Of a stretch of DNA of 64,000 nucleotides, positions 15,515-52,012 are shown one piece after another (position 1 is the first letter of the stretch; each line of letters opens with the position of its first letter). The position numbers and the translations under genes are program-made. This stretch comes from Eledone cirrhosa (Eukaryota): contig OZ024740.1 in assembly GCA_964016885.1 (NCBI GenBank), forward strand, positions 273,110,001-273,174,000, read 5' to 3'. The notes beneath the pieces are model-generated. The model worked only from the letters and a program-made list of their open reading frames with translations, did not search any database and was not told the origin of the DNA.

Positions 15515-15674
15515 CTGTCTCGCTCGTTCCCCCTATTTACGTGTCCCAACGACTTTCTTTAGCCGTTGCTCGCACCAACCAGAGGTATATGGTCTTTAAA
15601 GCGATGAAATACCAATGAAGGCTGGAAGATCACTGATGAAAGACTAATTTTATTCATATGTAACCCATTTGCAA

Positions 15675-15757
<83 letters not shown>

Positions 15758-15758
<1 letters not shown>

Positions 15759-18700
15759 GGTCGATTTGACCTGGCCGATAGATATCGACTAGATTTTCTA
15801 TCTATCTATCTATCTATCGGTCGATTTGACCTGGCCGATAGATATCGACTAGATTTTCCGACTGCGCCAACCTGGACTTGGGCAAATCGTAGCGGATCAT
15901 CTAGGTCGTACCTAGATAGGTTCTTAGTTAGAATTAAGGATAAGGACTTTTTAAGTTGTCCAAAAATGCGCATTGTTGGCTATTCAGACCACAAATTAGT
16001 GACCTGCATGGTCAACCTTGACAGAACTCATAGACAGGGCCCCGGTTACTGGAAGCTCAACTTGTCCTTGCCGGCAAGTAGAGCCTACAGGAATCGGATT
16101 AGTACGTTAGTTAAGGAACGGTTGACTGGAGCGATCGTCAACAGCAGGTGGTGGGTATCTCTAAAGAGAGAGATTAGAGTAGTCTCGATAGAATTTAGTA
16201 AGGTTCTAGCTGCGGATAGGAATAGGAAGGAAAGGGAGCTAATAGATAGAGTAGAAGAGGCAATTAGAAGCGGCGACGTGGCCAGAGTGCTAGCGTCGAG
16301 AACGGCTTTGAGCCAGTTTTTCGACGCGAAGCACGAAGGCTGCGTTGTCCGAAGTAAAATACGTGCTCTAGGGAACGAGGGGACCAAAGCTGTTAGCTGG
16401 GCCCGCGTGACAGAGGCCAACAGTGGAACTAAATCCACCATCCGGTCTTTGCGAGACCTGGATGGACGGGCGATTCTTGAGCCTAAGCAGATGTGTGAGG
16501 CCTTTCAAAGGCACTTTGCCCGACTGTTCGGGAGGGGCGGGGAGCCGGTTGGGAACGTGGACTTCGGTCCATACCTCGACGGCCTGCCGCGCCTCTCGGA
16601 CAGGGAGGCGAAGTCCTGCGAGGAGCCGATTTCAGCCGCTGAGATAGAGGACGTGCTGAGCCAATGCGGCAAACGCAAATCCCCGGGTCTCGATGGTCTT
16701 CCTTACGAATTATATCTAGCTATGCCGGACTTGTTCCCCGATCTCCTCGAGGCGGTCTACTGCAACTGGCAACAGAACGGGAGAATTCCCTGTACTGTGA
16801 CCAAGGGCGTAGTCACGCTAGTGAGGAAGGACGAGAACAAGGGGGACGAAATAAGTAACTTCAGGCCCATAACACTGCTAAATACAGAGTTACAGATTTT
16901 GGCCAAGGTGCTAGCAAAGAGGTTGGCGCTTGTCGTGGGCAACCTGGTGGGAGATGCGCAGACATGCGCTATCCCGTCCAGGTCCATCCACGACAACCTC
17001 CACCTCATGCGATGCATCATAGAGAGGGTTGGGAACGAACCCGGCTTTGGTGGGGCTCTGATCAACTTGGATCAATCTAAGGCGTTCGATAGGGTCGACC
17101 ATGGTTACCTGGGTGCGGTGCTAGCGGTGGCAGGCTTCGGACCCGTTTTCAGGGGCTGGATCACTGCTATGCACAGCAGCCGCATCTGCTCTAGGGTCAA
17201 GGTGAACGGCTACCTCTCGGAGCCGTTCAAAATCGCGCGGTCCATCCGACAAGGGTGCCCTCTCTCCTCCCTTCTGTATGTGTTGACTCTCGAGCCACTA
17301 CTGCGGAAGTTGGAGTTGTTGCAGGGCATCCCTTTGGAACCGGGATTGCGGAAAGCGGTGTCGGCCTACGCCGATGACGTGACAGTAATGGTGTCGACGG
17401 CCTCCGAAATCGAGGCGGTCGGCACCTTACTGGAGGAGTACGAAAAGTTCACAGGGGCTAAGCTGAACCGGGACAAGTCGATCGGTTTGCAACTCGGCAC
17501 GTGGAGGGGCAGACCGATGCCCTCCGATAGCGTCGTCGGACGCTGGACGGAGGGCCCGGTGAAGTTGCTCGGGGTCTGGTTCGGATCGGACCTCCAGGTG
17601 GAGAAAAACTGGGCGGAGGTTACGAACAGGGTGTTTGCACTGACCCAGAAGTGGGCCAGTTGCAAACTATCCCTGAAAGGTCGGGCGGAGGTGGCGAACA
17701 CCTACATAGCGTCCGTCATCTACTACCGCCTGACCGTAGTGCCCTGCCCAAGGGAAACCCTCACCAAGATGGAGCGCGCGCTCTTCCAATTCCTTTGGAA
17801 GAGGCGGGCTCCTATGGTGAGGAGATCCATCTGCTGTCAACACCCTTCGAAAGGAGGGCTGGGGATGCCGTGGCTAATGATGCGTAAACACGCATTAAGG
17901 CTACGGCACCTCTACGTATTCCTCACCGGACAACCGGTGTGGGCCTCGTTTGTGAGACGAACCTTTCCCAGACTCGTCTCACTCACCGAGCTGCAATCCT
18001 GGGTCAAGCAAAGACCGAGAAAACTGGGCGCCTGGCACACTGAGTGTGCCCAGGCGCTCACCGCCCTCTGGCAGGCGGATCCGGTTATCAGTGGAGACTC
18101 CACCGCAACATTCTATAGAGGGCTGGTACGCAGCAGGTGCGACGACGCCCTCGGAGAAGCCCTAGACATGGAGGAGGACGAACTGGCCAGCCTGTTCGGT
18201 AGGACATTCAGCCCGGGACCTATGGACAACTTCCAGAAGTCCCTGGCCTGGCAGTGCTACCGAGGGGCTTTACCCGTTCGAGAAAGGCTCTACAGACACG
18301 GGCGCCCGGGTAGGGACCCCGCCAAAAAGATCTGTCCCAGATGCGTGTGCGACGAGGAAACCGTTGCACACGCATTAGTACACTGCTCGGGCGTAGCCGA
18401 TCTGTGGGGCTATGTCGAACAACTGCTGTCAAGGGTGGGACCGATCCGGTTGACCACCGAGTCTATTGTAATGATCAAGCCGCCTCCCCCCTTCAAAGAT
18501 GAAGCAGAGGCGGTGTTTCTGTGCGTAATAGCCATGGCGAAAGAGGTTGTATGGTGGACGCGTCTGAAAGGACTGAGGTCGGGCACCTTTCTCTCTGGCC
18601 AACAACTGGTCCGTTTCTTCCGATATCATTTCGGAAGAAGGATCAGGATGGAGAGAGAGGTGCTGCACCCCAGCCGTTTCTATGAAAGATGGGTGAAAGT

Positions 18701-19008
18701 GGCGAGAATGGCCCGTGTGAATGGGCCTTCACTCTACATCAGACTATAGGTGAGGAAGATGAAAGACCAAGGGAGCACCCCTTCTCTGTGCTCCTGAGGA
18801 GAAGGGTTGCACACTTTTTTTCGGGGGTGTGTGCGACCCCCCAAGGCGCCTCCTCTCTATTGAGGATTTTGTTAAAAATTTTATTTTTTGTTATATCTTA
18901 TTTTTATATTTTGTTATTGCCTCCTCCTTATTGAGGACGCCTTTTTGTGTAAACTCCCCCCTTTGTACTTGTCCCACTTTTGATGCCCTAGTGGCAAATA
19001 AAAGAAAT
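15758..19008 (+). mobile_element. 5'-truncated Tx1/L1-clade non-LTR retrotransposon inserted in a (TATC)n microsatellite
   Basis: GC-rich block flanked on both sides by (TATC)n; contains the long ORF2; ~260-bp 3' UTR ending ...GTGGCAAATAAAAGAA directly into (ATCT)n. Confidence 0.93.
15818..18749 (+). CDS. LINE ORF2: C-terminal part of APE endonuclease, reverse transcriptase and C-terminal zinc knuckle; 5'-truncated with no true start codon
   Basis: APE motifs YLDRFL and SDHKLV, GYWKLN, KSPGLDGLP, FRPITLLN, LDQSKAFDRVDH, IRQGCPLS, AYADD, GGLG and CPRC..ETVAHALVHC. No stops. The ORF-track start at 15669 is only read-through of the TATC repeat. Confidence 0.93.
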
Positions 19009-22760: not shown

Positions 22761-23061
22761 ATATAAATATAATATATATATATATATATATATGTATATA
22801 CAAAAGGAAATTTCGCTCTACATGGCTAAATACAATAAATGTAATCTGAGTTTTTCGCATATTAATAATTGTTTCTACTTTTGGAATATCCCCTGCAAGG
22901 AACAGTCAGATAAAATTTACATAGTCTTTCTCCTTAGCCGTAGAAATTAAACGGGGCTAGGTTTAAAATGTAAGTTTGAAGAAGAAATGTATATAAACTT
23001 TACCAAAATTATTCTAGTCCCGACTATCGACAGTTTCCCTCGTACTTTGTTGATATATATC

Positions 23062-23622
23062 TGTAGCGACTAGCGCCACCTTGCCCTGGGAGAAAAAAAC
23101 TGATTGGAGTTACTTCCCGTTGAATTATAGAGGATTCCTTGAACTTCCGGTCTAGGGATTATAAAGGAGGGAGAAAATAGACATCTTAGCTTATTTGGCG
23201 ACCGACTCTCGGACAGTTCACTCACGAGCGAGTTTGTTAACCTTATTATATCTGTATCGAATTAAATTAGTGTTGGCCTGCAGTGGCGTTTACCAAAGTA
23301 AATAACCCTGACTCCACATCAGAAGGCTGCGTGTTCGCATCACGTCGGGGTCACCACTTTAGTGAATTGGTCACAGGGTTATTTACTTTGGTAAACACCA
23401 CTGCAGGCCAACCACTAATTTAATTCGATACAGATATAATAAGGTTAACAAACTCGCTCGTGAGTGAACTGTTCAAGAGCCGGTCACCAAATAAGCTAAG
23501 ATGTCTCCTTTCTCCCTCCTTTATAATCCCTAGACCGGAAGTTCAAGGAATCCTCTAGAATTCAACGGGAAGTAACTCCAATTAGTTTTTTCTCCCCGGG
23601 CAAGGTGGCGCTAGTCGCTACA
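23062..23622. mobile_element. Fold-back element of two inverted Gypsy-like LTRs around a tRNA-Trp copy, with 4-bp TSD TATC
   Basis: Starts TGTAGCGA and ends TCGCTACA; ~250-bp inverted arms; TATC at 23058-23061 and 23623-23626; minus strand reads LTR...TTCACTAAA-G-TGGTGACCCCGACGTGAT (Trp PBS); TATAAA at ~23160. Confidence 0.9.
23308..23356 (+). pseudogene. Retro-copied 3' part of mature tRNA-Trp(CCA), positions 28-76 including the CCA tail
   Basis: CTGACTCCAcATCAGAAGGCTGCGTGTTCGcATCACGTCGGGGTCACCA matches the conserved metazoan tRNA-Trp 3' portion as recalled; anticodon CCA at 23314-23316 and terminal CCA at 23354-23356. Confidence 0.92.
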
Positions 23623-24021
23623 TATCCAATCCTGGTATTATCCATGAGGTTTCAATCTTATCAAGAGACTCCCTTAAGAGGGCTAACATTTCTACAGTGA
23701 TCGCCGCCAGAAATGAATTCAAAATGGGTAAGAATCATCACATGGCCAGCGGCCAAAGTAGAAGGTTGTGAATGGCAGGCCAGATGGCAGGTAGGTTGGC
23801 TGATACAAAGAACAGTTAGATACCGCCTAAGGTTTACTCGACCGAACGGAAGTATAGAATAAATCCATAGGCATATATATGTATATATTTAGACATAGTC
23901 ACAGATACATATATGAGTGTGGCTACCTTTCACGGTGTGGCTCAATGAAAAAATTAATTAAGCAAATAATTATTAACCAGAGCTATATAAAATTATAAGT
24001 TTGAAGAACAGTCAGATAAAA

Positions 24022-32689: not shown

Positions 32690-32740
<51 letters not shown>

Positions 32741-32758
32741 TGTGTATAGAAGATTAAG

Positions 32759-33137
32759 TTAATAAGAGGAATTCCAACTTTGTCTGATTTACTCGTTTTA
32801 TTTACAATCCTTTAAAATTCATAATGGTATTATAATGAAATAGTATGATAGAATATTAAATTCTAAGTGTTAATTGAACAAGTACTTTCATGCTTTCGCA
32901 ATCTTCAGGTTCATAATATGTGGTGACAGTCAAGTTTGCAATTTTCAACTGTTGAAAATTGCAAACTTGACTGTCACCACATATTATGAACCTGAAGATT
33001 GCGAAAGCATGAAAGTACTTGTTCAGTTAACACTTAGAATTTAATATTTTATCATAATATTTCATTATAATACCATTATAAATTTTAACGGATTGTAAAT
33101 AAAACGAGTAAATCAGACAAAGTTGGAATACCTCTTA

Positions 33138-33141
<4 letters not shown>
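32759..33141. repeat. 383-bp palindrome with a 1-nt centre and a hammerhead in each arm
   Basis: Centre TTTTCAAC-T-GTTGAAAA at 32950; (TA)n flanks. Confidence 0.95.
32987..33025 (+). ncRNA. Minimal type I hammerhead; mirror copy at ~32875-32913 on the minus strand
   Basis: UGAAC-CUGAAGA-uUGC(GAAA)GCAu-GAAA-GUA-CUU/GUUCA; palindromic AAGUACUU. Confidence 0.8.
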
Positions 33142-33189
<48 letters not shown>

Positions 33190-33202
<13 letters not shown>

Positions 33203-36200
33203 CTAGATGTCTGTCTGTGTGTGTGTATGATTTTTATGCATTTCCACATTTCTCTACCGATTTTGATGATTATTTTTCCAATGTGCTCCAAATTTACCGG
33301 GGCAGGTCAACGCCTTATTACTTTTGCCAAAATAAGAAATCGATAAAACTAAATACATGCTGTAACCCTCTCTCTTACACGCTTCATTCCTCTCACTACT
33401 ACCATAACAAATATATGAAAGTACTTACATGTTGCAACTCTATTTAAAAGGTTCATCCTTTCCTCTACTCCACTCTCAATCTCCTCTGCAACTGTCTTTA
33501 AAAGGATCATCACTCCCTCTACTCCCCACCTCAATCTCCTCTGCAACTCTCTCCAAAGGGTTACTGCCTCCGTCTATTACCCTATCAACATTACAATTTA
33601 GAACAACAACAACACTTCTTTTGAAGGAACGCGACACAAACTTTGAAACCTAAGCAACACATCGATTTATACAACAACCATAGCTTTACTCTCTCCGTCG
33701 CTCTTTCCTCTCTCTACAATAGATTATTCCCCCTCTCTATAATTTAACTGCTTTACTCTCTTCATGCTTCGAGGTTTAACACTAGCTTCACTCTCTCCGT
33801 CGCTCTTCTCTCTCTCTATAATAGATCATCCCCCCCCCCCTTCGTTCGGGAACGCGTAAAAAACTTTGATAACTAAGCGACACTCATACATCAAATATCA
33901 AAATTTAAAAAGCCGATAACACTAAATACATACTGCTCTTTCAACGTTACATTTTCCACACTTACATTTTACATCAAATAACAAATATTAAAAAGCAACA
34001 GATGAATTTATAAAACAAACAAACGTAACAATAACGACGCTTAAGCATTTATTTACATGATTCTCAACAAAGACATATTATATTGTTGTCCTTTTTGTAA
34101 TTTTCTTTCTTTGTTTTTCTCAATATGTGACAAAAAATTAATGAGAACACTTTTTTCACAGGATTCTATTCCAAGTCGGGACAATTATTGCTTTTGGTCA
34201 GGAGAAGGTCATGAAGCAAAACAATTTCAAATCAATCATCAATAAGGGCAAAAATCGATCATGATCTTTCCACCTCTCTATAATTTAACTGCTTTACTCT
34301 CTCTCTGTCGCTCTTAACTCCCTATATGACAATACTGCAGAGAGAGAAACAATGTATATGATCAAATGGAGCGTTCCGTATATTCCCCCTCTCCATAATT
34401 TAACCGCTTTACTCTCTCTGTCGCTCTTCACTCCCTATATGACAACACTGCAGTGGAGCGTTCCGTATTGACATACGGCTTATCTGGGGCATTTTCAATG
34501 GGCTTATTGCAAATAACAACCCGCAAAATAACACTTCATATAACAGATTAATGCTATAGACATATGAACCGGAATGTAACCCGTGAACATTTTCCTGGGC
34601 AAAATTATTCGAACAGACATCACCTAATTGTCAGAGTGTTCAGACTGAAACTGGCTAAACTCATGGCTTTAATCAAAAAGGTCAGGTATTTGGGGCTGTA
34701 AAATGTGACATGTTCACCGTCGAATGGCAAAAATGAGGGCTGCCGCATGCTCACATTTTGATTTGGTTAGCTGATAAAATCAATTCAAATGCCATAGACA
34801 GCTTCATTTCGGCTGAAATCCCTAACCCAGCAACTGACCAGGAATTACATGAGATCGTCAAAGCTAACATGATTCATGGTCCGTGTGCGTCGGGTCCAAA
34901 TGAGCATCACACATGTCTGAAAGGGGGGTCGTGCAGTAAGGGATACCCCAACAAATTTGTTGACCAGACTCAGTGGCGACGGGTACCCCCTGTACAGGCG
35001 GAGACGGCCCGAGAACGGTGGCTTCACCACAACAGTAAGGGGAGGTCAAGTCGACAATAGATGGATGGTCCCTTACTGCCCGCTTCTCTTGGAGATGTTC
35101 AACGCTTACATCAACGTTGAGTTTTGCATCTCCTTCAAGTCGATAAAATACATATGCAAATATGTAAATAAGGGCTCTGCTGCCGCAATGTTCGCATTTC
35201 AAGCTGAAAATAGCAGGGACGAGGTCACAGAATATCTGGCGGGGCGGTACATCAATAGCAATAAGGCTTTTTGTCCCCTATTTGGTTTACCCCTACACCA
35301 ACGAACGTCACCCCGCTATCGCACAGCTTGCGGTACATTTGGAAAATGGGCAAAGGGTTTACTTTACAGACCAAACCGCCGCCAAGTTGGCCGCCGATCC
35401 GAAAGAGACCACTCTGACGGGTTTCTTCAAACTTTACCAGTTCGATACATTTGCGCAAATAATTGTGTACTCCTAGCTTCCATCCTACTTTATCTGGTCG
35501 AAAAACACTTGGGTGCGAAGAAAGTCAGGTCAGGCTGCTGAAAGACGTCCTAGTGTAAAGTTTGACAGCTGTCTTGGAAGGGTTTACACTGTGCCCCCCA
35601 AGTCAACATGAGTGCTTTCATCTCCGCCTTCTTATGCATGAAGTTGTAGGCCCACAAAGTTTTCAGGACCTCAAAACTGTTGATGGAGAAATATGTGATA
35701 CGTACCGGGAAGCCTGCTTTAAGCGTGGTCTTTTGGAAGATGATTCGCAATGGGATTCCACTTTAGCAGAGGGTGCTTTGTTGAAATCACCTGAAGGTCT
35801 ACGGGAACTCTTTGCCATTTTGCTTCAAATGTGTGAATTGGGTGATCCCAAATCTTTATGAGTCAAGTACAGAGACTTCATGTCTGCAGTATACTTCAGT
35901 GGAAGTTGGTTACATCGACATTATCTACAACAGGATACTCATTGATATCGAGGACGCCCTCCTCGACATGGGTGGGAGTGAGTTGGCGACGTATGGCTTG
36001 CTGTTAACCGACAGAGAGGAAGCTAACACGTTGGCTCCGGATTTGTTGCGGGAAACAGCATATGACATTGAATCTCTTTCCAAATTGATTCTCGTTAAGA
36101 TTCGTCAGGAGAAAAAAATTGCGCTGGCCGTTGCTTCGTCCGGGATCGCTGCTACATTGCTGCCGGGAGGCAGGATAGCACATTCAACCATAAAACACCC

Positions 36201-37602
36201 CTTGGATTTAGTAAAAACTGAGACACCAACATGCAATATCAGCAAGAGTTCACACGAAGCTCTGGTTCTCAAAAAATGTTGCCTCATTGTTTGGGATGAG
36301 TGCACAATGGCACACGAGGTTGCCCTTGAGGCATTGGACAGGACCCTGAAAGACATTAGGGATTCTACGGCTCCTATGGGTTGCGTAACCCTTCTGCTAT
36401 CAGGGGATTTTCGGCAAACGCTGCCTGTCATCCCCAAAGTGACAAGAGCTGATGAAGTGCGTGCCTGCCTTAAAACGTCCATGTTGTGGCTCTAGGTGAA
36501 GAGTGTGTACCTGAATATGCGTGCGCATTTGTATTGTGACAACATGTCTGTAGCATTTACTCAGAATATTTTAGCACTTGGTGAGGGCAAGGTCCCTGCG
36601 GATGACAAGGGCGGTATAGCAATACACCCTGTCCAACATTGTGTGCAGCCCTTCTGACCTTTGGGAAGCAGTTTTTCTAACCTTAAAAACCTAGATTGGC
36701 TCAGCGAAAGAGCCATGCTTGCTCCGAAAAATACCATGGTTAATTTTATTAACGAGCAGCTGATTGAGAAGTTCCCGGTAAAGAGCCATCTTCAAATCTA
36801 TCTACCGGACGTCAGACCCCGATGATATCGTTAATTATCCGGTTGAGTTATTAAATTCCCTTGAGGGAATTCCCTTAGGGTTGGCTGTCCCATTATGCTA
36901 ATAAGGTGACTTCGGTCCACCAAAGCAGTGCAACGGTACTCGCATGGTCATCAAGTCATTGACGCCACACTTGATTGGGAGCACCATTGTAACGGGGTGC
37001 GGGAGAGGGGAGAATGTTTTCATTCCAAGGATGAACCTTTTCCCTTCGGCGTCAGATATCTCTTTCGATTTCCGGCGATCACAATTCCCGGTGAGACCAT
37101 GTTTTGCCATGTCCATTAACAAGTCACAAGGGCAAATATTGTCGGTGGCGGGCATCCATTTGGGGGAGCCATGCTTCTCCCATGGCCAACTTTATGTTGC
37201 CTGTTCCCGCGTAGGGAGCAGGAATGGACTTTTTGCTTTCACTCCTCAAGGGATGACACGCAATATCGTCTACAAAGAGGTGCTATGTGTTGGTGCAGAT
37301 GTTGGAGGTGTTGGAGTTATGTCGTCTGGAAAACTGGTAGGGTCACTCATAGCGGACAGATCTGACACACAGCGGCATCAGGGCCACCATCTTGCAACTT
37401 TGGTCTACTAAATTCTCTATTGGAAGATTATTGACCCATCATTGATTGTCCAAAATGCTAATAGGTTCGTAACTTTTAATAACCGGTTCAACTGGTTTAT
37501 GCACTTAATTAATAAGCTTATGCGCTTTCAAGCTACGTTTACCTGTATGTAACTTTTCATAGCAAATGAACAAACCCGAGCAACGCCGGGCTAAACTGCT
37601 AG
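33190..37602 (+). mobile_element. Decayed Helitron
   Basis: 3' end has hairpin CCCGAGCAACGCCGGG followed by CTAG|T at 37599-37602; 5' end lies within (TA)n before ATAAAATGCTAGATGTCTGTC (approximate); Rep/helicase remnants inside. Confidence 0.9.
34520..37290 (+). pseudogene. Helitron RepHel (HUH Rep plus PIF1-family helicase), frameshifted and internally deleted
   Basis: VEWQK*GLPHAHILIWL, MIHGPC, GYPLYRRR, IKYICKYVNKG, LAVHLENGQRVYF, VASSGIAATLL, IVWDEC, GDFRQTLPV, FAMSINKSQGQ, HGQLYVACSRV; many stops and frameshifts; Walker A motif absent. Confidence 0.92.
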
Positions 37603-38320: not shown

Positions 38321-39488
38321 TAATAAGGTAATGAATTCTTTTACAATGGAATTAGCTCGAAGGAGGAAAATACCCCTGAGCCGTGTATAAACTAATATAT
38401 ATGATGAAACACAGATACCAATACATCTGTATATATATTGCAAAAGAAAATTTAGCCAGATTGAAGTATACTAATTATTATACTACAGTTTGTCCATATC
38501 GATTTAAAATAATAAATCAACAAAGACGAACTGCATTGCCAAAAGGCTATGATGTTTAGACACATTTAAATTTCAAAATCAAACCTGTTCCGTAGATAAG
38601 TTTAAACTTTAAAATCCAAATATGTTTCGAGATAAATAAGTGTAGGAATATCATGTCCTGCGCTCCTCAGTAAACATCCAGGGACAAATTGATATGCTTC
38701 ACTTCTAAATAATTTAAAAGACTGTGTGACGCACATGGTTTAACAGTTTCTAGCTACTCTCATAACCGTACTGCTAGAAATAACAGTCGTATATATGAGG
38801 CGGCTTTCAGCTCAGACTAGGAGCAGTTATATTAATAAGGTAATGAATTCTTTTACAATGGAATTAGCTCGAAGGAGGAAAATACCCCTGAGCCGTATAT
38901 AAACTAATATATATGATGAAACACAGATACCAACACATCTGTATATATATTGCAAAAGAAAATATAGCCAGATTGAAGTATACTAATTATTATACTACAG
39001 TTTTCCTCCTTCGAGCTAATTCCATTGTAAAATAATTCATTACCTTATTAATATAACTGCTCCTAGTCTGAGCTGAAAGCCGCCTCATATATACGACTGT
39101 TATTTCTAGAAGTACGGTTATGAGACTAGCTATAAACTGTTAAACCATGTGCGTCACACAGTCTTTTAAATTATTTAGAAGTGAAGCATATCAATTTGTC
39201 CCTGGATGTTTACTGAGGAGAGCAGGACATGATATTCCTACACTTATTTATCTCGAAACATATTTGGATTTTAAAGTTTAAACTTATCTACGGAACAGGT
39301 TTGATTTTGAAATTTAAATGTGTCTAAACATCATAGCCTTTTGGCAATGCAGTTCGTCTTTGTTGATTTATTATTTTAAATCGATATGGACAAACTGTAG
39401 TATAATAATTAGTATACTTCAATCTGGCTAAATTTTCTTTTGCAATATATATACAGATGTATTGGTATCTGTGTTTCATCATATATAT

Positions 39489-39497
<9 letters not shown>
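38321..39497. mobile_element. 512-bp unit as a 1.3-mer tandem followed by an inverted copy
   Basis: TAATAAGGTAATGAATTC at 38321 and 38833; strand switch at ~39002; (TA)n on both sides. Confidence 0.88.
39208..39283 (+). ncRNA. Candidate type I hammerhead; mirror copy at ~38600-38675 on the minus strand
   Basis: GUUUA-CUGAGGA-GAG...CUC-GAAAC...GUU/UAAAC. Confidence 0.65.
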
Positions 39498-39570
<73 letters not shown>

Positions 39571-39574
39571 TAAT

Positions 39575-41040
39575 TATTAAAATAACAGATTAAAGTTTAA
39601 GCAAAGAATCGCTGCTTTCACTCTTAACGGGATCTTCTGAAACTAACAAAGTCAATCTGTAAACGCAGAAGTGGATATTTAAAAAAACGTTACAACCGGA
39701 GGAAGACAGGAAGACGATACTTTGGTTCATGGAAACGTTCCCTGGCAAAGAACGGGAAAAAACGAATATAATACGTCATTAATAGGAATGATGAAAAACA
39801 ATTACGCGCAAAGAGAGAACCACGTTTATGGTATAAAAGAGGTCGTAGACTAATGTTCTCTTAGGTGGTTCATACAGACGTTCTCTGGCAATGAACGAAA
39901 AAAAACGAAGATAATACGTCATATGTGGAGCGTGGAAAACAAAGAAAAAACCACGTAAATGGTATAGCAGAAGTCGTAGACTAAAATTCTAACTAGGAGA
40001 CCGAATGGATCTCCGCTTCAGAGTTAAGAACAAAGTAAATAAATAGAATAGAGAGGTAATAGAAATTAAATAAATACATACACGCATACAAATACGTACA
40101 TACACAAGCATACGCGAAAACACTTACCATAGGTATACAAAACCACGCACATATAAATATGTGTGTGTGTGTATGCGTGTATACAAATAAATAAATAATT
40201 AAATAAACGTATATGAATAAATAAATACGTATATAACAAGCGCACACAAATATCTACATGTAAATACACAAATGTTCGGAGACGTAAGTCAACCAAAACA
40301 TGAAGTACACATATACACACACCCTACATACGTACGAACCTGCATACTCACACAGACGCAAAACTCCCGTATACACATAACCAAACCATATGTACCAGAA
40401 TATATAAAAATATACGCCATAACATATACAATCAAATATACGTACGAGAAGGTATACGTACCTTCACAAAACATACAGGTAATATATACTTACCTATGCA
40501 AATAAGTAATGGTATAAAGAAAACATATATATATCAAGACGTAAAATATGCACGTATAGATCGTACTATCCGTTAGGGTATAACGTGGGGCTCCACGCTC
40601 CACATATGACGTATTATCTTCGTTTTTTACGTTCATTGCCAGAGAACGTCTCTATGAACCACCTAAGAGAACATTAGTCTACGACCTCTTTTATACCATA
40701 AATGTGGTTCTCTCTTTGCGCGTAATTGTTTTTCTCCGCTCCTATTAATGACGTATTATATTCGTTTTTTCCCGTTCTTTGCCATGGAACGTTTCCACGA
40801 ACCAAAGTATCGTCTTCCTGTCTTCTTCCGGTTGCAACGTTTTTTGAAATATCCACTTCTGCGTTTACAGATTGACTTTGTTAGTTTCAGAAGATCCCGA
40901 TAAGGGTGAAAGCAGCGATTCTTTGGTTAAACTTTAATCTGTTATTTTAATAAATATTTGCTCTACGGTTCTTACATATTTGATATATATTTATCCTTAT
41001 CGAGCCCTCTTTGGATTTTAGTCTTCAAATTTATTATTAT

Positions 41041-50106: not shown

Positions 50107-51597
50107 CATATCATTTACAGACTTTTCCACTATACATTATTATTGTTGAGCTGTATTTCATACATATCATTTACAAACTTTTCCACTATACATTATGCGG
50201 TGGATTGGCAGTATCGGTAGAAGGTCGGACGCCATGCTTTCCAGCATAGTTACGTCCCTTTACGATCTGAGTTCAAATCCCGCCGAGGTTAACTTTGCCT
50301 TTCATCCTTACGGGGTCGATAAAATAAAGTACCAGTAATGCACTGGGTAATTGCTGGCCTTGTGCCTAAAGTAGAAACAATTATTATTGTTGAGCTGTAT
50401 TTCATACATATCATTTACAAACTTTTCCACTATACATTATTATTGTTGAGCTGTATTTCATACATATCATTTACAGACTTTTCCACTATACATTATTATT
50501 GTTGAGCTGTATTTCATACATATCATTTACAGACTTTTCCACTATACATTATTATTGTTGAGCTGTATTTCATACATATCATTTACAGACTTTTCCACTA
50601 TACATTATTATTGTTGAGCTGTATTTCATACATATCATTTACAGACTTTTCCACTATACATTATTATTGTTGAGCTGTATTTCATACATATCATTTACAA
50701 ACTTTTCCACTATACATTATTATTGTTGAGCTGTATTTCATACATATCATTTACAAACTTTTCCACTATACATTATTATTGTTGAGCTGTATTTCATACA
50801 TATCATTTACAGACTTTTCCACTATACATTATTATTGTTGAGCTGTATTTCATACATATCATTTACAGACTTTTCCACTATACATTATTATTGTTGAGCT
50901 GTATTTCATACATATCATTTACAGACTTTTCCACTATACATTATTATTGTTGAGCTGTATTTCATACATATCATTTACAGACTTTTCCACTATACATTAT
51001 TATTGTTGAGCTGTATTTCATACATATCATTTACAGACTTTTCCACTATACATTATTATTGTTGAGCTGTATTTCATACATATCATTTACAGACTTTTCC
51101 ACTATACATTATTATTGTTGAGCTGTATTTCATACATATCATTTACAAACTTTTCCACTATACATTATTATTGTTGAGCTGTATTTCATACATATCATTT
51201 ACAAACTTTTCCACTATACATTATTATTGTTGAGCTGTATTTCATACATATCATTTACAGACTTTTCCACTATACATTATTATTGTTGAGCTGTATTTCA
51301 TACATATCATTTACAGACTTTTCCACTATACATTATTATTGTTGAGCTGTATTTCATACATATCATTTACAGACTTTTCCACTATACATTATTATTGTTG
51401 AGCTGTATTTCATACATATCATTTACAAACTTTTCCACTATACATTATTATTGTTGAGCTGTATTTCATACATATCATTTACAAACTTTTCCACTATACA
51501 TTATTATTGTTGAGCTGTATTTCATACATATCATTTACAAACTTTTCCACTTACAGTTATGGAGATTATACATTATTATTGTTGAGCTGTATTTTCA
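50107..51597. repeat. 56-bp minisatellite, about 23 copies, interrupted by a SINE
   Basis: Unit CATATCATTTACA(G/A)ACTTTTCCACTATACATTATTATTGTTGAGCTGTATTTCATA. Confidence 0.97.
50197..50382 (+). mobile_element. SINE inserted in the 56-bp minisatellite
   Basis: Full short-form copy flanked by ATTAT on both sides, splitting one repeat unit. Confidence 0.92.
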
Positions 51598-52012
51598 CTT
51601 CCAAGCACTTCCAAATAATTATATACATTGTATCATTAGGCTTTTTCATCTGAGTTTTTCATTACCAACATTTGCACATTTAGTTTCTTAATTTGAACTT
51701 CGGATGCAATATTCTGTAGTTTGGCAAAAGAATCCCGTATTTAATCAAGCAAAGTTGATTTAAGTGAATCAGATACCATACAAAACTTAAACATATTCTC
51801 TTATATTATCAGAATGCTTTAGTATTTTATTTATATAGATATTTTTTCATTGAGAGTATTCTAAAATAGAAATATAGAGCCAAAAGGATTTTTAACCATT
51901 ATTAGAAAGGTGAGAGAAGCTAGGAAGATGAAAAGATGAGAAGAGGGGAGAAAAGGAAGAGAAAAAGACAGAAAGAAAGAAAGAAGGAAAGAAAGAAAGG
52001 ATAATAATAATG

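What the first reader, a model, noticed from the sequence alone, without database searches (positions are those of the whole stretch)
23308..23356. tRNA modification footprints in DNA: C at tRNA positions 37 and 58, plus encoded CCA
Seen in sequence: against the conserved metazoan tRNA-Trp sequence (from memory), the two clear differences are G37>C (23317) and A58>C (23338), and the copy ends in CCA. Established: m1G37 and m1A58 block Watson-Crick pairing and cause RT misincorporation, and CCA is added post-transcriptionally in eukaryotes. Inference: the template was a mature modified tRNA, so this locus records in vivo modifications and the misincorporation bias of this RT.
Basis: partly seen in the sequence, partly recalled or inferred. 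Interest (0 to 1): 0.85.

Follow-up and report, generated by a model that had tools for sequence, protein, structure and literature searches.

The report
Jumping gene overcopied its tRNA primer
A jumping gene's copying enzyme ran past its normal stop into the tRNA it uses as a starter, made errors at two letters that are usually chemically modified, and the faulty hairpin-shaped copy was pasted into the genome, where it and similar accidents seem to preserve a record of tRNA modifications.

Summary
Observation confirmed: 23308-23356 is tRNA-Trp positions 28-76 with CCA, C37 and C58. None of 63 host gene-like copies has C at either site.

The fragment is the loop of a 561-bp fold-back of one Gypsy (CsRn1-type) LTR with a 4-bp target duplication. 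It is the primer tRNA, over-copied during plus-strand strong-stop synthesis, mis-primed on LTR sequence and integrated.

In a genome census of 28 singleton copies, position 58 is non-A in 7 (6/27 without the window; background 2.1%, p about 2e-5). Copying ends at positions 35-40 (20) or 27-29 (7), never at 30-34.

Against: substitution at 37 is weak (1/7 without the window); G49>A (5/28) is unexplained; most genome hits are inherited copies; the modifications were not measured in this animal; C is not this family's usual error (T58 in 7/8). Two coding lineages keep 32- and 39-nt primer-binding sites.

Overshoot is known in HIV; ten searches found no genomic census. The scan saw a similar tRNA-Leu case in another genome (e1-7804496).

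The parts
23058..23061 (+). Left target-site duplication (TATC)
   Evidence: a 4-bp duplication is readable in 8 other family members
23062..23310 (+). Left arm: LTR in sense orientation from its U3 end, cut about 16 nt before the U5 end
   Evidence: 95.2% identical to the right arm over LTR positions 2-250; alignment
23308..23310 (+). 3-nt microhomology (CTG) shared by the left arm and tRNA positions 28-30: the inferred mis-priming site
   Evidence: the arm alignment ends at 23310; the tRNA match starts at position 28
23308..23356 (+). DNA copy of tRNA-Trp(CCA) positions 28-76 including CCA; its 3' part is the reverse complement of the primer-binding site, the rest is over-extension
23317..23317 (+). 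C at tRNA position 37 (host G; inferred m1G37 misincorporation)
   Evidence: rough posterior 0.86-0.93 that RT made it (using 2/9 as prior rate)
23338..23338 (+). C at tRNA position 58 (host A; inferred m1A58 misincorporation)
   Evidence: rough posterior 0.86-0.93 (using 6/27 as prior rate)
23357..23357 (+). One-base spacer between LTR end and primer-binding site, as in full-length family members
23358..23622 (-). Right arm: complete 265-bp LTR of a Gypsy CsRn1-type family
   Evidence: 95.5-96.6% identical to the LTRs of the 4.7-kb coding elements L081 and L082; domains
23623..23626 (+). Right target-site duplication (TATC)

Best explanation
This is a dead, integrated accident of LTR-retrotransposon reverse transcription. 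SHOWN: the anatomy is target duplication, LTR (U3 end outward), tRNA-Trp 28-76, inverted LTR (U3 end outward), target duplication; the LTR belongs to a Gypsy CsRn1-type family primed by tRNA-Trp. INFERRED: (1) plus-strand synthesis from the polypurine tract copied the LTR and then the attached primer tRNA; (2) RT did not stop at m1A58 but misread it, misread m1G37, and stalled just before modified G26; (3) the over-extended 3' end, which no longer matched the element's short primer-binding site, annealed through 3 nt to plus-sense LTR sequence, either on itself or on a second strong-stop DNA in the particle; (4) fill-in gave a linear palindrome with two U3 ends; (5) integrase inserted it with the family's 4-bp duplication. 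The two C's are most likely RT errors at modified bases. The set of such copies in the genome records where the primer blocked or misled RT.
For: Anatomy and duplication. Parent family: RT, RNase H, integrase; CHCC Gag motif; tRNA-Trp primer site and 4-bp duplication match the CsRn1 description (PMC2582038 passages). Host genes G37 in 62/63, A58 in 61/63, no C. Census (+28): 35 rows, less 1 host gene, 1 second arm of a palindrome and 5 rows of one amplified family = 28. Position 58 non-A in 7/28, 6/27 without the window, against 22/1037 background (binomial p=1.8e-5; p=0.002 against an assumed 5%) and against 2/63 in genes (Fisher p=0.008). The changes are mixed (C in 4, T in 3 in the census; G in L064 and L162 outside it), unlike an isodecoder. 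End points: 20 per 125 site-exposures at 35-40, 0/40 at 30-34, 7/16 at 27-29. The one copy passing position 26 has G26>T (L061). L058 folds back at position 27 through the anticodon stem. L007 is a second U3-to-U3 product with its own 4-bp duplication. L006, L016, L085 and L206 are internal deletions joined at or beyond the primer site with 4-bp duplications. Read-through past A58 and a stop at 37 are described for HIV (PMC13191261 section 10). Ty1/Ty3 make several plus-strand strong-stop DNAs per particle, the first carrying tRNA sequence (PMC5371799 passages).
Against: Substitution at 37 is 1/7 without the window in the census (p=0.14); it reaches 2/9 (p=0.04 against genes) only by adding L007 and L008, found by other searches. 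G49>A occurs in 5/28, nearly as often as changes at 58, at a site with no blocking modification that I know of; inherited copies show 2/60 (p=0.03; 2/48 after dropping 12 tandem copies, p=0.09). 21 of 28 census copies keep A58. The background is capped by the mismatch limit of the searches, so it is an underestimate. The end-point windows were chosen after seeing the data, and L058's end was reset by hand from 25 to 27. Two gene-cluster copies also carry T58 (L161; L210 also T37 and A49). Some singletons may be inherited long primer sites of low-copy families, as two coding lineages are. Independence of the seven T58 copies is only weakly supported: all share A57 and the LTR tree has no well-supported branch. 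That this animal's tRNA-Trp carries m1G37, m1A58 and a G26 methylation is assumed from other eukaryotes (partly recalled).
Confidence: 0.85

Rival explanations
1. The fragment is over-copied primer tRNA, but one or both C's are ordinary mutations that arose after insertion.
For: Arms are 95.2% identical, so about one later mutation is expected in 49 nt. C is the minority change in this family (1 of 8). Two of 63 gene-like copies changed at 58. Position 49 shows that an unexplained hotspot can exist.
Against: Both changes hit the two predicted sites (8.5e-4 by chance). Position 58 is non-A in 8 of 8 copies of this family (8 of 9 counting L159, whose LTR is 90% identical). Rough posterior for an RT origin is 0.86-0.93 per site.
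Confidence: 0.1
2. The tRNA segment was inherited from a parent element that already carried a long tRNA-like primer site; the fold-back is a later rearrangement and says nothing about the reaction that made this copy.
For: Most genome hits are such inherited copies: one junction cluster of 58 (T58 in 57), one of 11, one of 6, one of 3. All seven T58 copies of the window's family share A57.
Against: No other copy shares the window's junction or its C37/G57/C58 combination. The full-length parents L081 and L082 have only an 11-nt contiguous primer site. The family's read-through copies end at different positions (27, 27, 28, 29, 30, 38, 38, 52). T58 copies fall on both sides of the one moderately supported LTR split (92/92). 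Even an inherited segment would trace back to an earlier read-through.
Confidence: 0.04
3. A LINE-made tRNA retrocopy, or an assembly fold-back artefact, that happens to sit between LTR pieces.
For: A LINE-type RT frame lies at 15648-18749. The window has other near-perfect inverted repeats. No reads were laid on the locus.
Against: The tRNA's CCA sits one base from the LTR end, exactly in the primer-site register. There is no poly(A) tail and no duplication around the tRNA piece. The arms differ by about 5%, the element has a 4-bp duplication, and the same tRNA-LTR register recurs across many LTR families.
Confidence: 0.01

Closest known systems
Plus-strand strong-stop DNA over-extension on the primer tRNA in HIV-1 (products P1-P5; PMC13191261, section 10 read; PMC11251516 passages)
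   Same: RT normally stops before m1A58; minor products run on and stop at position 37 or copy the whole tRNA; loss of A58 methylation lengthens them.
   Different: There they are in vitro or cell-culture intermediates, described as dead ends beyond position 54. Here they are integrated, inherited genomic copies from an invertebrate-type Gypsy family with tRNA-Trp, carry substitutions at the modified sites, and are rescued by mis-priming.
Lentiviral primer over-extension sequence (PMC13191261)
   Same: Element-encoded complementarity beyond the 18-nt primer site. Two coding CsRn1-type lineages here carry 32-nt and 39-40-nt complementarity; the window's family has an 8-nt T-loop complement after its 11-nt site.
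   Different: The lentiviral sequence covers a few bases to about position 54-55; here it reaches 45 or 37/38. Function here is untested, and the window copy itself is a one-off accident.
Ty1/Ty3 multiple plus-strand priming; primer sequence not inherited (PMC5371799 passages)
   Same: A first tRNA-containing strong-stop DNA is displaced by later ones, which would supply both partners of the head-to-head join and explain why full-length parents keep their own short primer site.
   Different: The Ty product stops after 12 nt of tRNA and is discarded; no integrated palindrome is described in the passages seen.
CsRn1 clade of Ty3/Gypsy LTR retrotransposons (PMC2582038 passages)
   Same: The parent family has the tRNA-Trp primer site, CHCC Gag motif, 4-bp duplication and GPF motif.
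   Different: The window copy has no coding part and has inverted, not direct, LTRs. Clade membership was not tested by a tree with named members.
Misincorporation-based tRNA modification mapping, mim-tRNAseq (PMC8062790 passages)
   Same: Stops and mismatches at 9, 26, 37 and 58 report base-pairing-face methylation; the m1A signature depends on the neighbouring base (here non-A58 in 6/13 with A57 against 1/15 with G57, p=0.03).
Helenus TRIMs (PMC10886601, part 1 of 6 read)
   Same: Non-autonomous LTR elements with tRNA-derived sequence; 4-bp duplications in animals.
   Different: In Helenus the tRNA-like part lies inside direct LTRs and is proposed to act as a Pol III promoter derived from a SINE. 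Here it is the primer, outside the LTR, lacking the A box.
Retroviral deletions by errors in plus-strand transfer (Pulsinelli and Temin 1991: title seen only in a reference list, text not held); cloned circles with tRNA between LTRs (Colicelli and Goff 1986) and the strong-stop origin of tRNA SINEs (Ohshima et al. 1993): both recalled, not held
   Same: As recalled: tRNA primer sequence copied into DNA and joined to retroelement sequence by faulty transfer.
   Different: Not checked against the texts. They may already report mismatches at modified bases in single clones, which would lower novelty.

Membership tests
CsRn1 clade Gypsy (parent family) | Primer-binding site for tRNA-Trp next to the 5' LTR | tested here: met
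   L081 and L082 carry 11 contiguous complementary nt one base after the LTR
CsRn1 clade Gypsy (parent family) | Gag CHCC motif CX2HX9CX3C | tested here: met
   present in L081 and L082
CsRn1 clade Gypsy (parent family) | 4-bp target-site duplication | tested here: met
   L006, L013, L016, L081, L082, L083, L085, L206; L019 matches 3 of 4
CsRn1 clade Gypsy (parent family) | Pol order PR-RT-RNase H-IN with GPY/F motif | tested here: met
   frames are broken; the protease frame had no Pfam hit and the integrase hit was below the curated cut-off
CsRn1 clade Gypsy (parent family) | Monophyly with named CsRn1 members in an RT-RH-IN tree | not tested
   no named reference proteins were fetched
Over-extended plus-strand strong-stop DNA | Whole LTR joined to primer site and further tRNA complement in exact register | tested here: met
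Over-extended plus-strand strong-stop DNA | Ends cluster at modified tRNA positions | tested here: met
   20 ends at 35-40, 0 at 30-34, 7 at 27-29, 1 beyond, of 28; windows chosen after the fact
Over-extended plus-strand strong-stop DNA | Excess mismatch at position 58 | tested here: met
   6/27 without the window against 2.1%
Over-extended plus-strand strong-stop DNA | Excess mismatch at position 37 | tested here: inconclusive
   1/7 without the window; 2/9 with two added copies
Over-extended plus-strand strong-stop DNA | The primer tRNA is actually modified at 58, 37 and 26 in this animal | not testable with these tools
   needs tRNA-seq or mass spectrometry
Host tRNA gene or pseudogene | Full cloverleaf with 5' half, no encoded CCA | tested here: not met
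LINE-made tRNA retrocopy or SINE head | Poly(A) or LINE tail and own duplication around the tRNA piece | tested here: not met
   CCA runs straight into the LTR; the only duplication flanks the whole palindrome
TRIM / Helenus | Two direct LTRs with primer site and polypurine tract between; tRNA-like part inside the LTR | tested here: not met
   LTRs are inverted, no polypurine tract seen, tRNA part outside the LTR

The most novel reading that the evidence does not exclude
Animal genomes hold a readable, datable record of germline tRNA modification made by their own LTR retrotransposons. Each primer-overshoot insertion is one read; end points map blocking modifications (37, 26); the substituted base at 58 depends on RT family and isodecoder (window family 4/4 against 3/24 in the other families of the census, p=0.002; A57 6/13 against G57 1/15). 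Some Gypsy lineages have kept the accident as a 32-nt or 39-nt primer-binding site, the longer one ending at the position-37 stop, a retrotransposon counterpart of the lentiviral over-extension sequence.
Probability: 0.45. Interest if true: 0.75.

Novelty: new variant of a known kind. Interest (0 to 1): 0.58.

Why it matters
If it holds, tRNA methylation state and the error signature of extinct reverse transcriptases can be read from a genome assembly alone, in animals with no tRNA-seq data, and dated by LTR divergence. It also shows in vivo that over-extended strong-stop DNA is not always a dead end: it can be rescued into deletions, palindromes with two U3 ends and amplified families. Practical point: CCA-ended tRNA fragments beside LTRs should not be annotated as tRNA pseudogenes or SINE heads, and some Gypsy primer sites are far longer than the 18 nt that annotation tools assume. 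The single window copy is a dead relic; the value lies in the class.

Tried and rejected
ARAGORN and Rfam gathering found nothing in the window.

The first CCA-anchored search gave 248 matches, 100 listed. I rejected it as a census because most examined rows belong to amplified families with one shared junction. (47 rows) favours A58 and favours C58; neither was used for rates.

Junction cluster J03 is a low-complexity artefact and was split by hand. L058's apparent G26>T is arm sequence of its fold-back and was not counted as a misincorporation.

A present-day A49 isodecoder as the cause of G49>A was not found: 1 of 63 gene-like copies has A49. The LTR tree is star-like, with no starred branch and an unsettled bootstrap.

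The flank BLAST identified the joined sequence for only a few of the events; most flanks stay unassigned.

Sequencing runs: 3 of 6 listed hold 0.23-0.27 of the words, all from one study. No reads were laid, so this is no evidence either way.

Three older papers were not held. PMC3747384, PMC9278108, PMC10085805 and PMC7197481 (passages only) had nothing on primer over-copying in genomes. Earlier scan notes for this genome: none.

Full report
OBSERVATION. Window 23308-23356 matches a host tRNA-Trp(CCA) gene of the same 3.0-Gb animal genome (L028) at positions 28-73, continues with CCA, and differs only at 37 (C, 23317) and 58 (C, 23338). A pattern with free letters at 37 and 58 gave 68 matches; 5 are LTR-joined copies. 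Of the other 63, G37 is in 62, A58 in 61, and C in none. I saw the flanks of only part of these 63; none of the 20 full-length gene-like copies ends in CCA. Position 57 is G or A in host genes (two isodecoders).

The fragment is the loop of an inverted repeat, 23062-23622, flanked by TATC on both sides. The right arm (23358-23622) is a whole 265-bp LTR, one base from the tRNA's CCA, which is the register of a primer-binding site. The left arm (23062-23310) is the same LTR in the other orientation, cut near its U5 end; its last three bases double as tRNA positions 28-30. The arms are 95.2% identical, which argues against an assembly fold-back. The LTR has many genomic relatives (839 candidates, 40 scored), including 4.7-kb elements L081 and L082 with RT, RNase H and integrase hits and the CHCC Gag motif. 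A 4-bp duplication is readable in 8 family members. These are the features listed for the CsRn1 clade of Gypsy elements (PMC2582038, passages); I did not build a tree with named members.

MECHANISM. Read on the minus strand, the element is LTR, primer site, tRNA complement down to position 28, then LTR backwards. The first three parts are an over-long plus-strand strong-stop DNA. In HIV-1 this product normally ends before m1A58; minor products end at position 37 or copy the whole tRNA, and loss of A58 methylation lengthens them (PMC13191261, section 10). In Ty1/Ty3 the polypurine tract primes several times, and the first, tRNA-bearing product is displaced (PMC5371799, passages). I infer that such a displaced product annealed by 3 nt to plus-sense LTR sequence, on itself or on a second product, was filled in to a palindrome with two U3 ends, and was integrated. 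The two routes give the same sequence and cannot be told apart here. The family shows sister accidents: L007 has LTR, tRNA to position 30, six bases of the LTR's U3 end and a 4-bp duplication; L058 folds back at position 27 through the anticodon stem; L002 is another head-to-head join; L006, L016, L085 and L206 jump from at or beyond the primer site into pol or the 3' leader and keep 4-bp duplications. Full-length parents have only 11 contiguous complementary bases, which may make mis-transfer common in this family (inference).

TEST ACROSS COPIES. A CCA-anchored search gave 248 matches, but among the 126 copies examined most are inherited: junction clusters of 58, 11, 6 and 3 copies. For an estimate that treats A, T and G at 58 alike I took the union of two searches over positions 38-76: 35 rows; dropped were 1 host gene, 1 second arm of a palindrome and 5 rows of one amplified family, leaving 28. 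Position 58 is non-A in 7/28 (C 4, T 3), 6/27 without the window, against 22/1037 at other sites (p=1.8e-5; p=0.002 against an assumed 5%) and 2/63 in gene-like copies (p=0.008). End points: 20 at positions 35-40, none at 30-34, 7 at 27-29, and one copy (L061) that runs to about position 8 with G26>T. Stop rates per exposed site are 0.16, 0 and 0.44 (p=0.004 and 5e-5 against 30-34); the windows were chosen after seeing the data and L058 was reset by hand to 27. These are the positions at which RTs stop or misread in tRNA-seq (PMC8062790, passages). That tRNA-Trp carries m1G37 and a G26 methylation is recalled from other eukaryotes, not from a call. Within the window's family all 8 read-through copies found are non-A at 58 (window C; L002, L005-L008, L057, L058 T); L159, with a 90% identical LTR, keeps A. 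In the census the family is 4/4 against 3/24 for others (p=0.002), and A57 copies are 6/13 against 1/15 for G57 (p=0.03); these two effects are confounded.

RESULTS AGAINST. Substitution at 37 is 2/8 in the census and 1/7 without the window (p=0.14); adding L007 and L008 gives 3/10, or 2/9 (p=0.04). G49>A is 5/28, against 2/60 in inherited copies and 1/63 in genes; I cannot explain it. 21 of 28 copies keep A58, so most read-through was on unmodified primer, was read correctly, or was inherited. Two gene-cluster copies carry T58, one of them (L210) also T37, A49 and a change at 32. The LTR tree does not prove that the T58 copies are independent: no branch is well supported, though one 92/92 split separates L007 and L016 from the others. 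About one later mutation is expected in 49 nt at this age, so each C has a rough 7-14% chance of being ordinary. There is no read-level confirmation and no modification data for this animal.

LONG PRIMER SITES. The 11-copy and 6-copy clusters are coding CsRn1-type lineages (RT, RNase H, integrase and CHCC in L204 and L205) whose complementarity to tRNA-Trp runs 32 nt (to position 45) and 39-40 nt (to 37/38). Adjacent leader sequence is 84-87% and 84-93% identical among copies while the tRNA-like part is nearly intact, but the copies were found by that part, so this is biased. The 58-copy cluster has T58 fixed (59/60), and the one locus read at length had no long frame (L203). They resemble the lentiviral primer over-extension sequence. 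They also mean that some singletons of the census may be inherited rather than fresh.

NOVELTY. Over-extension on the primer is known biochemistry. Ten full-text searches (listings seen, ten papers opened as passages or sections, no supplements) found no report of integrated genomic copies used as a modification record, of an integrated U3-to-U3 palindrome with a tRNA loop, or of 32-39-nt primer sites in Gypsy elements. The library lacks most subscription papers, and three older papers likely to bear on this were not held. The scan's notes hold one similar unchecked case with tRNA-Leu in another genome (e1-7804496), seen after my reading was formed; it is not independent support.

VERDICT. New variant of a known kind. 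Confidence in the mechanism 0.85; interest 0.58.

Noticed in passing
L205 (G000:C28:46003500-46013000) and L023, L034, L131, L142, L147: Coding CsRn1-type lineage with a 39-40-nt tRNA-Trp-complementary primer site ending at position 37/38; position 58 is A in 4 and T in 2 of 6 copies.
   Followed up: partly
L204 (G000:C1:163268500-163278000) and 10 relatives: Coding CsRn1-type lineage with a 32-nt primer site to position 45, A58 in 11 of 11, shared across three LTR types.
   Followed up: partly
L203, L088-L117 and others; tandem run near G000:C14:21370000-21465000: Amplified family, no long frame in the one locus read, with a fixed T58 in its 32-nt primer site (59 of 60), sometimes tandemly doubled: a possible RT error spread genome-wide.
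   Followed up: partly
L210 (G000:C4:277429821): Full-length tRNA-Trp gene copy in a gene cluster, no CCA, with changes at 32, 37, 49 and 58. Could be chance decay or conversion by an over-extended cDNA. L161 has T58.
   Followed up: partly
census copies L056, L061, L124, L146, L148; also L008, L131: Recurrent G49>A across unrelated LTR families, unexplained; perhaps a lost or unassembled isodecoder, or a hotspot.
   Followed up: partly
L061 (G000:C14:18749161-18749224): Near-complete tRNA-Trp copy joined to an LTR, with G26>T, C58 and a possible 2-nt loss near position 9: the intermediate once proposed for tRNA-SINE birth (recalled). C58 would damage the B box.
   Followed up: partly
L081, L082 (5' leader): The window's family has an 11-nt primer site followed by 8 nt complementary to the T loop of the A57 isodecoder, repeated in the leader. 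Its LTR mostly ends in AA, not CA; a few copies (L017, L018) end in CA.
   Followed up: no
L024, L134: Over-extended products joined at or just before a polypurine tract and 3' LTR start, giving tRNA sequence between two LTR ends.
   Followed up: no
G000:C4:353394000-353490000 and C4:277405000-277445000: Tandem clusters of tRNA-Trp genes; the larger is almost all the A57 isodecoder.
   Followed up: partly
window 15648-18749 (+): 1033-aa open frame with RVT_1 and zf-RVT: a non-LTR (LINE-type) element with a long intact frame.
   Followed up: no
window 35785-36495 (+): PIF1-like helicase fragment, probably a Helitron piece.
   Followed up: no
window 38386-39497, 39571-40956, 32703-33197: Three more inverted repeats (99%, 95%, 93%); the first two have a loop that repeats flanking sequence, like fold-back duplications; no tRNA seen in their loops.
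   Followed up: no
window 50268-51687: Tandem array with a 56-bp period and 99-100% identity in its core.
   Followed up: no
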